Positions 10,554 to 26,829 are shown, counted from the first letter of the stretch. The stretch is 64,000 bases of DNA from Octopus vulgaris (GCA_951406725.2 OX597840.1:19158001-19222000), one strand, 5' to 3'. The notes: generated by a model from the sequence alone, not told the origin. Translations and numbers: made by a program.

Positions 10554-11689
10554 AATAATAATAATAATAATGATAATAATAATAATAATAATAATAATAA
10601 TAATAATAATAATAATAATAATAATAATAATAATAATAATAATAATAATGATAATGATAATAATAATAATAAAAATAATGATAATAAACGATGATATTGA
10701 TGATGATGATAATTATGAAGCGAAAGCATTTACAAGTTGTGTATCAACGTCAGTTACTTGTTCTCAGCGTTGACATTCTGATTTCTATATGTACGTGTGT
10801 GTGTATATATATACGTATTTGTATATATATATATATATATATATATATATATATGTGTGTGTGTGTGTGTGTGTGTGTGTGTGTGGTTTTCAGAGCCAGG
10901 GTTTGACTGCTATTTCGGCATGATGGTATCTCTCAGATACCCTTATTTATAGTTGTGAAAAATTATTACCTTTGTATGGTATTTATTCCCATGCTGGCCA
11001 CTTGATAATATCGATATTTAAATATCGATATTATCCTTATTTATAAATATATATATATATATATATATACATATTCGTACGTATGTAAAAGCGTATATAT
11101 ACATACATACATACATACATACATACATACATACATACATACATACATACATACATACACAGACACATATACACGCAAAGAACTACGCAAGTGCTGTCCG
11201 CTGCATGTCTCTCTTCAGGCGTCGCCATATTGCCTTCATCCGTTTGTAGCAATAAATCAGTTGCGTTTGTTTTGGGATTTGTTATAATTGTTTTACACTG
11301 CTTCATATACACAAACACACACACAGACGCACAAATATTCTTACACACACATCTGTATAATTAAATGCGATGTTGGGAAACGTAATATGCCGATGCAAAT
11401 TGATAATTGTGTGTGTGCATATATATATATATATATATATATATATATATATATATATATATATATAATATATAATTATGCGTGTGTGTGTGTGTATATA
11501 TATATGTACATATATGTATTTCCCCCTCTTTCTCTCTTTCACTCTCTGTATATATATATATATATATATATATATATATATATATATATATATATATATA
11601 TATATATAAAAGTTGAGTTGTGGGGTATCGCACGAGTGGGATTATATAAGAAAAAAGGTTTGAAAATGCAATTTAAACGATGTTTATTT

Positions 11690-11730
11690 ACTTAACCGGT
11701 TTCACTCTTTGGTAAAAGATTGTCAAAAGT
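11690..11730 (-). ncRNA. Minimal type I hammerhead ribozyme variant (U3-A8)
   Basis: Mirror copy of 14168-14208. Confidence 0.6.
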
Positions 11731-11744
11731 TACATTTAAGGAAA

Positions 11745-11971
11745 CATTGAATAATATGGGTTCAAAAAAGTTTTTTACATAATTGTCACATTGAATATTA
11801 TGCATTCAAAAAAGTTTTTTACATAATTGTCACATTGGATAGTATGGGTTCAAAAAAAGTTTTTTACATAATTGTCACATTGAATATTATGCATTCAAAA
11901 AAGTTTTTTACATAATTGTCACATTGGATATTATGAATTCAAAAATGTTTTTTATACATAATTGTCACATT
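11745..11971. repeat. 5 x about 44-bp tandem repeat (mirrored at about 13926-14153)
   Basis: Unit cattgaatattatgcattcaaaaaagttttttacataattgtca, with alternating gggttc/gcattc variants. Confidence 0.9.
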
Positions 11972-12116
11972 ATTTGGGAAAATTTGGCAGAAAAGGATAA
12001 AACAAATATATTATTGGGAATTGGTTGCGTTAATTATTGGTTGTCGCAAATTGTCACATTACATGTATATATATACAATCTTTGGTATATATATACAGCG
12101 TTTTGACAGCGTTTTG

Positions 12117-12193
12117 ACGTATGTGCGCGGTCAATGCCCGCTAGTGTGTCCACGCATAGGACACACTAGCGGGCATTGACCGCACACATACGT
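12117..12193. other. 35-bp-arm hairpin with 7-nt loop
   Basis: acgtatgtgcgcggtcaatgcccgctagtgtgtcc-acgcata-ggacacactagcgggcattgaccgcacacatacgt (1 mismatch). Confidence 0.9.
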
Positions 12194-14167
12194 GGCATGC
12201 ACACGCATGCATTATATATATGTAGGTGATGTATGTGTGTGAGTGTTGTGTGTGTGTGTGTGTGTGTGTGTGTGTGTGTGTGCACTGTGTGCGTGTGTGT
12301 GTATATGTGTGTGTGCGCGCGTTGTATGTGTGTGTGTGTGTGCACGTGTGTATATATGTGTGTGTGTGTGTGCACTGTGTGCGGGTGTGTGTGTGTGTGT
12401 GTGTGTGTGTGTGTGTGTGTGAGCATTGTGTACGTGTGTATGTATTTACATATGTATCTGTTTTTATATATATATATATATATATATATATATATGTGTG
12501 TGTGTGTTGTGTGTGTATATGCATGGTATGTGTGTATATGTTAGTACTTTGTTTGTGTGTATGTGCGGCATGTAGAGATATATTTGAGTGTGTACGCTAT
12601 AGGTTTGTAATTTGTGTGTGTGGGGGGGGTGAATTTTTTATATATATATATGTGTGTGTATGTGTGTGAAAAAATATATGTATGTGCATGTATGTATGTA
12701 TGTATGTGTGTATATATATATATATATATATGTGTATATATATGTGTGTGTGTGTATGTGTGTGTGTGTATATTTATTTGCATGTTTATGTGTGTATAAA
12801 CATGTACATTATTTGCATGCGCATTGTGTATATGTATATTGTATGTATGTGTATTGTATATGTACGTGTACAATTAAGTGTATATATTTGTGTGTATGTG
12901 TGCACTGTATATATGTATATTGTAGGTGTGCTATATGTGCATGAATACATGTATATGCATTGCGTGTATATATATGTATGCATTGTGTGTGTATGTATGT
13001 TATGTGTGTGTGTGTGTATATATATATTATATGTATGCGTACGTGTATGTGTATGCATTGTATGTATGTGTGTTGTGTGTATATGTGGTACATCTATGTA
13101 TGTGTATGTAAACACTATTTATATGTATATGTGTATATATGTATATACATTGTCTATATATATATATATTATATGTATGTATTGCGTATGTATATTGCAT
13201 GCATATATTGTGTATGTATATTACTTACATGCTGTATGTGTGTATTGTATGTGTGTATATATATGCTAGGTGTATTTGTGTGATATTTATATTATGTATG
13301 TATGTGTGCGTGTGTTGTGTGTGTGTGTGTGTGTGTGTGTGTGTGTGTGTGTGTGTATGTGTGTTATATATCTGTGTATGTTATATATAGATACATGTTA
13401 TATTTGTGTGCTGTGTGTATATGTGATATATGTGGGTGCGTTGTGTGTGGGTGTGTGTGTTCTGTGTGTGTGTGTGTTGTTTGTATGTGGTGTGTGTTTG
13501 TATACTATGTGTGTGTGTGTGTGTGTTGTTGTGTGTGTGTGTGTTTGTGTGTATATATATGTGTGTGACAAACAGACGCTGTCTGACCAGCAGGCATGGA
13601 CACATCTATTCACACCCGCATACTAACCTCCTGATAACCCCAAAATCATTCATGCATAAAGGGGAAGTATACACCACATTGGCTACTTCTTCTGTTCTCT
13701 CAGTTCAGCCTTTCTGCTAATACTGACAGGTCAGTAAAAACATACTTAAAATATTCTGAGATGTACAAAAAATCCATTTTAATTTTTGCTGTCAAAACGC
13801 TGTATATATATACCAAAGATTGTATATATATACATGTAATGTGACAATTTGCGACAACCAATAATTAACGCAACCAATTCCCAATAATATATTTGTTTTA
13901 TCCTTTTCTGCCAAATTTTCCCAAATAATGTGACAATTATGTATAAAAAAACATTTTTGAATTCATAATATCCAATGTGACAATTATGTAAAAAACTTTT
14001 TTGAATGCATAATATTCAATGTGACAATTATGTAAAAAACTTTTTTGAACCCATACTATCCAATGTGACAATTATGTAAAAAACTTTTTTGAATGCATAA
14101 TATTCAATGTGACAATTATGTAAAAAACTTTTTTGAACCCATATTATTCAATGTTTCCTTAAATGTA

Positions 14168-14208
14168 ACTTTTGACAATCTTTTACCAAAGAGTGAAACC
14201 GGTTAAGT
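14168..14208 (+). ncRNA. Minimal type I hammerhead ribozyme variant (U3-A8)
   Basis: actt-TTGACAA-tcttt tacc aaaga gt-GAAA-ccgg-TT-aagt. Stem I actt/aagt, palindromic stem III accggt, GUU site; the stem II junction is non-canonical (U/U). Confidence 0.6.
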
Positions 14209-24874: not shown

Positions 24875-25147
24875 AAGAACAGGGTAAATGTTTTTTTAAT
24901 TTTTCCTTTGATTTCGGAATTACTACTATTTGCGGTTGGAGCCCTGGCTGCTATTTCTAGTGGGCCGAACGGCCTATTGTAGCCGTTTCTCAATTGTTGT
25001 TGAATTTATTCATAGTCTCTGACTATTTCCTCTTTCTCACTAGACCGCTGGTGGCAAAATAATTTCTATTGAATTTTTTGCTACCCTAAATTGATTTATA
25101 TATATATATATATATATATATATATATATATATATATATATATATAA

Positions 25148-25360
25148 GGCGGCGAGCTGGTAAAACGTTAGCACGCCGGGCGAAATTCGTCTGTCGTTAC
25201 GTTCCGAGTTCAAATTCCGCCGAGGTCGACTTTGCCTTTCATCCTTTCGGGGTCGATAAATTAAGTACCAGTTACGCACTGGGGTCGATGTATCGACTTA
25301 ATCCCTTTGTCTGTCCTTGTTTGTCCCCTCTGTGTTTAGCCCCTTGTGGGCGTAAAGAAA
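25148..25360 (+). mobile_element. tRNA-derived SINE, family B (Meta-domain-like core, Tx1-like tail)
   Basis: A-box-like tggtaaaacgttag, B-box gagttcaaattcc, core gcctttcatcctttcggggtcgataaattaagtacca, tail ..tgtgggcgtaaagaaa; inserted in (TA)n. Confidence 0.88.
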
Positions 25361-25650
25361 TATATATATATATATATATATATATATATACATATATATA
25401 CATATATATACATATATATACATATATATATATATATATATATATATATACATGTATATATGTATACATACATATATATGTATATGAATATTTAAGTAGG
25501 TGAATGAATTATCCTATGTTTATCGTCAGCATGGAAAATTCGTTTAACCGAAACCTGGGTAGCAAATTCACGTCAGAAAACACGGTTGAAGCGACCTGTC
25601 AAGGGTAGAAACTCCGGGTTTATGTACAGAAATGTGTGTGTTGTATATGA

Positions 25651-25900
25651 ATAAATGAAAGAATGGAGTCGAACGGAGATGTTAACAAAATTCCTTTACT
25701 TTCGACACATGTTTCGAAGACAGCATATTTTCATTCCGAAGAAAGGGAGCCTCTCTCGACAACAAGACAAACAAAAATTCGATGATTGCCTACAATGCAC
25801 CCTTTATTCCTTCAGAATGAAAATATGCTGTCTTCGAAACATGTGCCGAGAGTAAAGGAATTTTGTTAACATCTCCGTTCGACTCCATTCTTTCATTTAT
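25651..25900. mobile_element. Small fold-back cassette (about 90-bp arms) with hammerhead remnant
   Basis: 25651-25741 vs 25810-25900 reverse complement. Confidence 0.85.
25751..25852 (+). ncRNA. Hammerhead variant (UCGACAA core), degenerate
   Basis: ctctc-TCGACAA-caagaca...tgtcttc-GAAA-catgtg-CC-gagag. Stem I 5 bp, stem II aagaca/tgtctt; the mirror arm retains GUC (gaaacatgtgTC). Confidence 0.6.
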
Positions 25901-26246
25901 ATGTATGTATGTATATATATATATATATATATCAATAATATAAGGGTAAATAATTATTAATTTTAAAATTAATAATTATTACCGAGTAGTTTCGGTATGG
26001 AAATCTAACCATTATCGGTAGGGACTTTTACAAAAAGTTCTTTATATCTATATATATATATATATATATATATATATTAATTGTTATCGCCATATTAATA
26101 TGGCATTCTTATAGATATAAGAATAATCGCTGCCGCTGGTCAGCTCCATGAGGCCACCGCCATCAAGATAGCTATTGATACACGATCTGTATCCATTATA
26201 ACCTTCGAACAAGGGAGGTCAGCCGCTTCACACTGCCAGTCCGACA

Positions 26247-26288
26247 GCTACAGACGCGTTTCGGGGTATTGCCCCTTGTCAATGTAGC
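26247..26288 (-). ncRNA. Compact type I hammerhead ribozyme with U3-A8 covariation
   Basis: gctaca-TTGACAA-gggg caata cccc-GAAA-cgcg-TC-tgtagc. 6-bp stem I, 4-bp stem II, palindromic acgcgt stem III. Confidence 0.88.
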
Positions 26289-26829
26289 GCAGTCAGACCC
26301 GCAGGTGTCGCCACTGACGTCTCTGTTCGAAGGTTTCTATGGACTTACACGCGCGCGCACACACACACGTGCATCACAGCATTGACGGTATTGCTGCTAC
26401 CCCACTGGCCAGGTGAGCAGGCCAACATTCTCCACTGGTCAGGGTTACCCATTTACTGCTGAGTGAAGGAGAGCCACGGGAAAGGAAGTGTTTTGCTTAA
26501 CAACACAATGCAACACACTCACCACTAAGCCACGCGCCTTCATACACACACACACATACACACACACACACACACACACATTCGCACACATACACATGTA
26601 TATAGACTGAACCACAAAAGAAACGTCGCGCACATACTAAGTAGAAATTAGTTTATTAGCAAACTGCCATAGCGTTGATTGAAAAGTGCTAATTAAGAAA
26701 CCGTTCTTTCCTAATGATAAAACGCCATTTCAAGAAACATGTTTGCCGTCACATGATGTCACGTGAATACGGAATGTCCTGGATCCAAAGTGATGAACTC
26801 AATATCTCGTGTGACCACCGTTAGCATTG

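What the first reader, a model, noticed from the sequence alone, without database searches (positions are those of the whole stretch)
11643..26350. A family-diverse system of non-coding fold-back cassettes carrying hammerhead ribozymes
Seen: within 15 kb there are five unrelated sequence contexts with a type I HHR fold (11690/14168, 18279, 24453/24754, 25751, 26247). Three are inverted duplications whose ribozyme-sense strands point outward, and they sit next to (TA)n. The coding PLE at 82-2440 has the same outward-pointing inverted-arm geometry. Known: PLE pseudo-LTRs carry minimal HHRs with palindromic stem III that can cleave as dimers, and PLE insertions often have an inverted 5' pLTR copy. 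Inference: these are ORF-less pLTR/retrozyme-like elements mobilised in trans by PLEs. Read-through from either direction would give a long dsRNA hairpin with one sense ribozyme.
Basis: partly seen in the sequence, partly recalled or inferred. Interest (0 to 1): 0.85.

Follow-up and report, generated by a model that had tools for sequence, protein, structure and literature searches.

The report
Hammerhead retrozymes riding Penelope retrotransposons
Of five ribozyme-like spots packed into TA-repeat DNA, two are cut-off ends of protein-coding Penelope-like jumping genes and three are short non-coding repeats with a conserved hammerhead ribozyme fold that are likely copied around the genome by those genes' enzymes, which would give a direct test of how animal 'retrozymes' move.

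Summary
The finding is a mixture. Two sites (11608-14255, 25481-25900) are 5'-truncated, inverted-end insertions of coding Penelope-like elements (PLEs). The hammerhead read at 25751 is not there: that copy lacks the core. Three sites (18147, 24325, 26076) are ORF-less units of fixed length (about 445, 489, 364 nt) with many dispersed copies; the first two are homologous, so there are four lineages, not five. The units join head to tail at a fixed junction, never ran on into an ORF in 122 end-anchored insertions (489- and 364-nt units), sit in (TA)n and carry PLE-type tails and outward inverted arms. Their hammerheads covary around a fixed core. Inverted insertions nearly always have one tailed and one tail-less arm (61 of 63, 19 of 20; coding family 11 of 11), and 18 of 63 have arms that share no sequence, so the 'fold-back' is likely two priming events. 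One insertion joins a 364-nt arm to a coding PLE's end. Cleavage, circles and expression are untested, and no homologous parent PLE was found. Verdict: new members of animal non-LTR retrozymes (non-autonomous PLEs), with insertion-level evidence for PLE mobilisation.

The parts
82..2440 (+). Broken coding PLE (RT and GIY-YIG remnants, about 548-1900) with an inverted 5' copy of its end; outside the finding
   Evidence: tblastn with the F1 protein 31-45% identity, E 2e-57
11608..12110 (-). F1 left arm: inverted 3' end of a young coding PLE, with most of its 38-nt tail, in (TA)n
   Evidence: 99% to L136
12151..14255 (+). F1 right arm: last 2.1 kb (microsatellite-rich 3' UTR and tail-less end) of the same coding PLE, 5'-truncated
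   Evidence: 96% to L136 positions 4282-6348; L136 holds an 876-aa open frame with RVT_1 E 7e-8
14168..14208 (+). F1 hammerhead-like motif (U3-A8 core, palindromic ACCGGU stem III, irregular stem II); mirror copy at 11690-11730
   Evidence: sequence; identical in 68 matches; fails the strict descriptor
18147..18488 (-). F2: truncated, decayed copy of an old ORF-less unit of about 445 nt, with a 33-nt inverted piece at 18456-18488
18283..18349 (-). F2 hammerhead, core intact, one stem II mismatch in this copy
   Evidence: core intact in 14 of 26 spanning pieces
24325..25099 (.). F3 insertion of a 489-nt ORF-less unit: tail-less arm 24325-24725 (minus sense), arm 24731-25002 plus 97-nt tail 25003-25099 (plus sense), in (TA)n
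24453..24563 (-). F3 hammerhead, complete (C3-G8 core, 78-nt stem II domain, 12-nt palindromic stem III); the copy at 24754 has A3
25481..25900 (.). F4: short inverted insertion of the end of a second, distant coding PLE family; tailed left arm, tail-less right arm; hammerhead core missing from both arms
25930..26046 (.). 115-nt (TA)n-flanked repeat piece of a further family; not a consensus hammerhead
26076..26340 (-). F5: 265-nt 5'-truncated copy of a young 364-nt ORF-less unit, 3' end in (TA)n
26247..26288 (-). F5 hammerhead, complete canonical type I (6-bp stem I, 4-bp stem II, U3-A8 core, ACGCGU stem III)

Best explanation
The region is a (TA)n-rich landing zone that holds two 5'-truncated insertions of coding Penelope-like elements and three copies of short, fixed-length, non-coding hammerhead units (retrozymes) that are likely copied in trans by PLE reverse transcriptase-endonuclease. 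Shown: unit lengths, fixed head-to-tail junction, (TA)n flanks, tails, outward arms, hammerhead covariation. Inferred mechanism: a more-than-unit RNA (uncleaved tandem transcript, or a circle made by hammerhead cleavage and ligation) is bound by a PLE protein; the enzyme nicks both strands in (TA)n and primes cDNA twice, once from the unit end and once from the tail end 60-100 nt further on; the two cDNAs stop at variable points and are joined 5' to 5', which gives the outward-facing arms. The fold-back is thus a by-product of insertion, shared with coding PLEs. The ribozyme is under selection in the source copies and most likely serves to cut monomers that close into circles (about even odds against a purely linear template).
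For: Fixed unit: of 64 pieces reaching the 5' end of the 364-nt unit, 57 run straight into position 1 of the next unit and the other 7 abut the opposite arm; 28 of 31 for the 489-nt unit. One junction 25-mer has 519 exact matches, reversed control 0. No sequence beyond 70 open 5' ends (52 not in (TA)n were compared) recurred as a shared continuation, and none was a shared ORF. PLE marks: (TA)n at one or both ends in 79 of 81 and 40 of 41 insertions; tails in 60 of 81 and 28 of 41; inverted arms in 63 and 20, all outward. One tailed plus one tail-less arm in 61 of 63 (sample anchored on a tail-less end), 19 of 20 (p 2e-5) and 11 of 11 inverted loci of coding F1 with both ends scored; arms share under 10 nt in 18 of 63 and 2 of 20. 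Two internal RT start sites one tail apart and cutting of both strands were shown in vitro for an anole PLE (PMC11167929). One insertion (L100) joins an F5 arm 5' to 5' to the end of a young coding PLE family. Ribozyme selection: stem II first pair G-C, G.U, A-U across F5 subfamilies (52, 9, 16 pieces) and G-C or A-U in F3; 10 of 12 pairs change on both sides among 11 natural hammerheads, covariation score reached by 0 of 500 shuffles; 20 of 51 pairs over the whole unit in six relatives; fold z -9.9 and -3.9. Two sites lead upstream into RT/GIY-YIG frames with variable 5' ends.
Against: No coding PLE with an end homologous to F2, F3 or F5 was found among the loci searched (149 loci gathered round coding PLEs; the nhmmer hits that I looked at were stand-alone relatives), so the partner is not identified by descent. 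The mixed insertion is a single case among 517 stored loci, many of them not F5, and could be a deletion between two neighbours. 5' breakpoints show no peak at the cleavage site (1 of 126 within 3 nt, 2.9 expected; 1 of 58, 2.3 expected): cleaved linear monomers are not the templates, and nothing here shows cleavage in vivo. F3 inverted arms are no closer to each other than to other copies (0.043 against 0.045), unlike F5 (0.019 against 0.057). The F2 unit does not fold better than shuffles (z -1.3). The 11 hammerheads were picked by a core and stem II pattern, so only stem I covariation (5 of 6 pairs) is free of that choice, and five of them were not shown to be F5 homologues outside the motif. 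Eight of nine Xenopus retrozyme dimers did not cleave in vitro (10.64898/2026.07.22.740005).
Confidence: 0.8

Rival explanations
1. All five sites are plain debris: F2, F3 and F5 are the ends (pLTRs) of coding PLEs that I did not sample.
For: True for F1 and F4. Only the best 40 or 150 candidates are scored per search, out of more than 10,000 PLE protein candidates, so most coding families were not seen.
Against: In coding F1 the tail runs on into the ORF start (L145, L152). In F3 and F5 the tail is the start of the unit itself and the unit closes on a fixed junction. No F3 or F5 insertion of 122 continued into a shared ORF.
Confidence: 0.08
2. The units are non-autonomous PLE derivatives copied only from linear, uncleaved tandem transcripts; the hammerhead is kept as a structural or protein-binding element and no circle is made.
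For: No breakpoint peak at the cleavage site. Unprocessed RNA was the main substrate for the anole PLE and ribozyme mutants did not affect insertion (PMC11167929). Stem III is only 2 bp in F5.
Against: The catalytic core and cleavage triplet are fixed while stems covary, including a C3-G8/U3-A8 switch. No array with three junctions was seen among the first 100 of 519 junction matches (nine same-strand pairs), so long source arrays are not evident, yet young insertions of two units exist (L095, L189). About one triple was expected, so this is weak.
Confidence: 0.4
3. The fold-back cassette is itself the functional mobile unit and acts through a long double-stranded hairpin that displays one ribozyme.
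For: 63 of 81 and 20 of 41 insertions are inverted; the F3 cassette folds at about -510 kcal/mol on either strand.
Against: Arm ends differ from locus to locus, arms often share no sequence, rare variants are mostly unshared between arms (21 shared, 196 not), coding PLEs make the same structure, and the hairpin pairs up the core.
Confidence: 0.04
4. The inverted arm arises by self-priming on a folded-back (antisense) template, as proposed for rotifer PLEs, not by two priming events.
For: Proposed in PMC3846280 from palindromes at inverted junctions (passages). F5 arms within one insertion belong to the same subfamily.
Against: A fold-back copy must repeat part of the first arm; 18 of 63 F5 insertions have disjoint arms, the two arms start at different fixed sites in 61 of 63, and one insertion has arms of two families.
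Confidence: 0.15

Closest known systems
Animal non-LTR retrozymes (Cervera and de la Pena 2020, PMC7229834; Li, Clavereau and Pollet 2026, 10.64898/2026.07.22.740005)
   Same: Non-coding head-to-tail units of a few hundred bases, GC under 45%, one type I hammerhead per unit, strongly self-paired; PLEs proposed as the mobiliser. F5 has the canonical 6-bp stem I, 4-bp stem II and short palindromic stem III.
   Different: Here the copies are dispersed partial tandems (no more than about three units seen) with inverted arms and tails, not long satellites; the link to PLEs rests on insertion marks, not on pLTR homology or co-occurrence; F3 is 489 nt with a 78-nt stem II domain. Circles and cleavage are shown for coral, mussel and axolotl retrozymes but not here.
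Endonuclease-bearing PLE insertions with inverted 5' pLTR and tail (PMC8557442, PMC3846280, PMC11167929)
   Same: 5' truncation, partial tandems, inverted 5' copy, tail at one end, (TA)n targets. F1 and F4 sites are simply this. F1 has the CX2-5CxxC linker described for Neptune and Nematis elements.
   Different: Tails of 62, 97, about 100 and about 160 nt exceed the 30-40 nt described; F1 has a 2.1-kb microsatellite-like 3' UTR; F2, F3 and F5 have no ORF.
PLE minimal hammerheads (Cervera and de la Pena 2014, PMC4209133)
   Same: U3-A8 core variant, palindromic stem III, enlarged stem II, opposite-strand pairs 100-700 bp apart, many families per genome.
   Different: That work read most single motifs as truncated PLEs; here three of five belong to ORF-less units with their own fixed boundaries.
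Non-autonomous Chlamys PLEs such as MRC1 (PMC8557442, passage)
   Same: ORF-less elements that form pLTRs and head-to-tail insertions.
   Different: Algal, mostly without a hammerhead, and similar to their autonomous partners at the 3' end; no such partner found here.

Membership tests
Animal non-LTR retrozyme (F5, F3, F2) | Non-coding unit of about 150-450 bp repeated head to tail | tested here: met
   364 nt, about 445 nt and 489 nt (slightly above the range); fixed junction
Animal non-LTR retrozyme (F5, F3, F2) | Type I hammerhead in each unit, with covarying stems | tested here: met
   Core intact in 44 of 48, 37 of 46 and 14 of 26 spanning pieces; covariation. Rfam gathering scan of four loci gave 0 matches, and no hammerhead family was among the 150 of 455 window matches shown.
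Animal non-LTR retrozyme (F5, F3, F2) | At least two consecutive hammerhead-bearing units at some loci | tested here: met
   L095, L103, L189 (F5), L002 (F3), L114 (F2); a minority of loci; no long array seen among 100 of 519 junctions
Animal non-LTR retrozyme (F5, F3, F2) | Low GC and stable self-paired fold | tested here: met
   GC 0.42, 0.37, 0.32; z -9.9 (F5), -3.9 (F3); not met for the decayed F2 copy, z -1.3
Animal non-LTR retrozyme (F5, F3, F2) | Self-cleavage of the RNA | not testable with these tools
   Bench assay needed; genomic breakpoints show no trace of cleaved templates
Animal non-LTR retrozyme (F5, F3, F2) | Expressed as linear and circular unit-length RNA | not testable with these tools
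   Only assembled contigs were offered; they cannot show ends, strand or circles
Non-autonomous PLE (F5, F3, F2) | PLE insertion marks: fixed 3' end, optional tail, 5' truncation, inverted 5' copy, AT-rich target | tested here: met
Non-autonomous PLE (F5, F3, F2) | 3' end homologous to an autonomous PLE | tested here: inconclusive
   No such partner among 149 loci gathered round coding PLEs; the sample covers a small part of the PLE families
Coding EN+ PLE, truncated copy (F1, F4) | Same end lies downstream of an RT and GIY-YIG frame in longer copies, with variable 5' truncation | tested here: met
   F1: L136 876-aa frame, RVT_1, 20 long loci with differing 5' ends. F4: RT and endonuclease frames in L276-L284; a relative 75% identical in the RT region matches PLE-type clusters at 0.98
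Neptune clade (F1); Hydra or Nematis clade (F4) | Placement in an RT phylogeny with reference elements | not tested
   Only motifs were read: F1 has CGRPNCKTC before the GIY-YIG domain; no reference set on hand

The most novel reading that the evidence does not exclude
These units are circular-RNA parasites of PLEs whose genomic scars record the PLE integration reaction: a protein dimer primes both target strands, always using the two start sites one each, and can take two different RNAs, so that a retrozyme and a coding PLE are inserted in one event. This genome would then hold a matched, still young pair (364-nt canonical hammerhead unit and intact PLE frames) with which the retrozyme life cycle can be rebuilt in vitro.
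Probability: 0.35. Interest if true: 0.7.

Novelty: new member of a known kind. Interest (0 to 1): 0.5.

Why it matters
That PLEs move animal retrozymes has been argued from co-occurrence and pLTR homology (PMC7229834; 10.64898/2026.07.22.740005). Here the argument can be read from the insertions: tails, (TA)n targets, outward arms and one mixed retrozyme-PLE insertion. The one-tail rule with disjoint arms favours twin priming from two start sites over self-priming as the source of PLE inverted ends, a point left open in the papers read. My five literature searches listed no paper that reports this for retrozymes; subscription journals, Repbase or Dfam entries and unseen supplements may hold it. 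The class itself is known, so the value lies in mechanism and testability.

Tried and rejected
Rfam: the window scan was swamped by microsatellite miRNA matches (150 of 455 rows shown) and four unit loci gave nothing at gathering score. The repeat finder on the whole window returned only microsatellites. Expression: no RNA holder listed on record; contigs of runs only guessed to be RNA were laid and are not used as evidence either way. Parent search: two protein searches and nhmmer over 149 loci found no coding PLE with an F2, F3 or F5 end; 19 of 20 further F4-type coding loci that I wanted were not examined. Apparent chimeras L003, L029, L461, L456, L153, L313, L359 were set aside: the partner is decayed, separated by (TA)n or other simple repeat, or joined at its own 3' end, which fits a later insertion next to it. 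The first junction pattern was a rare variant (3 matches). The 115-nt piece at 25930-26046 was checked as a sixth hammerhead and rejected (CCGAUAA in place of the core). Breakpoints at the cleavage site: no enrichment. Shared private variants between tandem units did not separate circle from tandem template (13 shared, 136 not in F5; 16 and 47 in F3). Earlier findings by place and by sequence: none.
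Full report
Setting. The window lies in a 2.8-Gb animal genome (G000:C27:19158001-19222000) and is very rich in microsatellites: 92 tracts of six or more TA, 36 of them in the finding. I label the five sites F1 (11608-14255), F2 (18147-18488), F3 (24325-25099), F4 (25481-25900) and F5 (26076-26340).

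Observation. The three inverted duplications and the inverted ends of the broken PLE at 82-2440 are there. A strict type I descriptor finds two complete hammerheads in the region, in F3 and F5; 200 local shuffles gave a mean of 0.035 and a maximum of 1. F2 has an intact core with one stem II mismatch, the second F3 arm has A at position 3, and F1 has an irregular stem II that is the family state (68 identical matches). At 25751 there is no hammerhead: the family core CUGAUGA lies in the stretch missing from all three pieces of the window copy. F2 and F3 are homologous (63% over 287 nt; z 11.7), so there are four lineages.

F1 and F4 are ends of coding elements. The F1 arm has at least 40 near-identical copies. 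In 20 longer loci the 5' ends differ from copy to copy, and L136 carries an 876-aa open frame with an RT match (E 7e-8) and a GIY-YIG region, followed by a 2.1-kb microsatellite-like 3' UTR; the window holds the last 2.1 kb plus an inverted end. In two full-length loci the 38-nt tail runs on into the ORF start. The F4 end extends upstream through a UTR into endonuclease and RT frames in the nine long loci fetched. Both are ordinary truncated PLE insertions, as drawn in PMC8557442 (passages).

F2, F3 and F5 are closed units. F3 is 489 nt, F5 364 nt, F2 about 445 nt. To avoid picking long copies I anchored on exact 3'-end words: 92 matches for F5, of which 81 insertions were examined, and 88 matches for F3, of which 50 were taken and reduced to 41 insertions after dropping 9 duplicates. 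Of 64 F5 pieces that reach the unit's 5' end, 57 run directly into position 1 of another unit and 7 abut the opposite arm; for F3, 28 of 31. The F5 junction word has 519 exact matches; among the first 100 listed there are nine same-strand pairs and no triple. Sequence beyond 70 open 5' ends showed no shared continuation; the three pairs that matched were simple repeat, a common interspersed repeat and an F3-type neighbour. PLE protein matches in these loci are neighbours at a distance or single decayed junctions. Two further young families related to F5, with units of about 358 and 356 nt, show the same pattern of hits.

They carry PLE insertion marks. (TA)n flanks at least one end in 79 of 81 and 40 of 41 insertions; a tail (62 nt in F5, 97 nt in F3, the start of the next unit) is present in 60 and 28; inverted arms in 63 and 20, all pointing outward. 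The arms are asymmetric: one tailed and one tail-less in 61 of 63 (this sample was anchored on a tail-less end), 19 of 20 (p 2e-5 against independent choice) and 11 of 11 inverted F1 loci with both ends scored. In 18 of 63 F5 and 2 of 20 F3 inverted insertions the arms share under 10 nt, which a fold-back copy cannot produce. For an anole PLE, two internal RT start sites one tail apart, cutting of both strands and a predicted dimer were reported (PMC11167929, parts 1-2 of 4). I infer that each insertion is primed twice, once from each site. One locus, L100, joins a tailed F5 arm (98.5% to the unit) 5' to 5' to the tail-less end of a young family (40 places at 99-100%) whose longer copies carry a frame 96% identical to F1, with (TA)n outside both ends. 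It is the only such case among 517 stored loci and may be a deletion product.

The ribozyme is conserved as a structure. Non-majority letters are rarer in the core than elsewhere (0.017 against 0.049, 0.020 against 0.041, 0.056 against 0.098). The first pair of stem II is G-C, G.U or A-U in F5 subfamilies (52, 9, 16 pieces) and G-C or A-U in F3. F2 and F3 differ in all three stems yet keep pairing and a palindromic stem III. Among 11 natural short-stem hammerheads, 10 of 12 pairs change on both sides, including the 3-8 core pair, and 0 of 500 shuffles reach the covariation score; these rows were picked by a core and stem II pattern, so stem I (5 of 6 pairs) is the unbiased part. Over the whole unit, 20 of 51 predicted pairs covary in six relatives, and F5 and F3 fold with z -9.9 and -3.9; F2 does not (z -1.3).

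Results against a simple cleavage story. 5' breakpoints do not pile up at the cleavage site (1 of 126 and 1 of 58 within 3 nt; 2.9 and 2.3 expected), and 14 of 81 F5 insertions hold a full unit. The template is therefore uncleaved multimer or circle. Within-locus divergence is lower than between loci for F5 (tandem 0.022 against 0.051; inverted 0.019 against 0.057) and F3 tandems (0.025 against 0.043), but not for F3 inverted arms (0.043 against 0.045). No homologous coding parent was found. A read-through hairpin of the F3 cassette pairs six of seven core bases with the other arm on either strand, so the fold-back form would silence the ribozyme.

Comparison. F5 fits animal non-LTR retrozymes: tandem units of 150-450 bp, low GC, canonical type I hammerhead, stable fold, PLEs named as candidate mobilisers (PMC7229834, part 2 of 6 and passages). 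A 2026 preprint calls them non-autonomous PLE derivatives from co-occurrence and pLTR homology in Xenopus, and found cleavage in one of nine dimers (10.64898/2026.07.22.740005, parts 1-3 of 5; its supplements were not visible). The U3-A8 core, palindromic stem III, close opposite-strand pairs and the idea of circles as more-than-unit templates are in PMC4209133 (parts 1-2 of 4). Self-priming was proposed for inverted ends in PMC3846280 (passages). The host group and clade names beyond these papers are my recall or motif reading and were not tested.

Verdict. What it adds is insertion-level evidence that retrozymes use the PLE reaction, and a pattern of arm ends that points to twin priming. Interest 0.5.

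Noticed in passing
L100:1408-1827 (G000:C10:70431754-70432173): Inverted insertion with arms of two families: an F5 arm with tail and the tail-less end of a young coding PLE family close to F1.
   Followed up: yes
window 25930-26046 and 24069-24102: 115-nt hairpin-rich piece between (TA)n tracts, at least 40 copies; in about a third of the 30 loci read, a shared 60-nt end lies just upstream across a short (TA)n, so it is probably the tail of another PLE-type family.
   Followed up: partly
L283:5265-5760, L461:3545-3950, L472:735-1075, L444:3100-3315: Diverged relatives of F5, two of them young multi-copy families with units of about 358 and 356 nt; cores differ (U3-G8, C3-G8, U3-A8).
   Followed up: partly
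L462, L446, L496 and rows: Several young coding PLE families with many identical open frames of 775 and 899 aa; tandem copies 4271 and about 3623 bp apart.
   Followed up: partly
L276-L284: The F4 coding family has a long asparagine-rich insert between RT and endonuclease, like those described in rotifer PLEs (PMC3846280, passage).
   Followed up: no
window 14800-15700: Old RT remnant with a YSRYVDD motif, probably another PLE type; no Pfam match at E 0.01.
   Followed up: no
window 12117-12193: Short palindrome at the centre of the F1 insertion, made from the F1 3' UTR at the truncation point.
   Followed up: partly
L095:1501-2158 and L002:1501-2235: Contigs of runs under other organism labels cover F5 (X16, 29 of 30 bins) and F3 (X18, 28 of 30 bins; X20, a 330-nt piece with 30 differences), so the families likely predate those species' split.
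   Followed up: partly
window 4480-4934 and 35704-35990: Two further palindromic insertions of common interspersed repeats; not examined.
   Followed up: no
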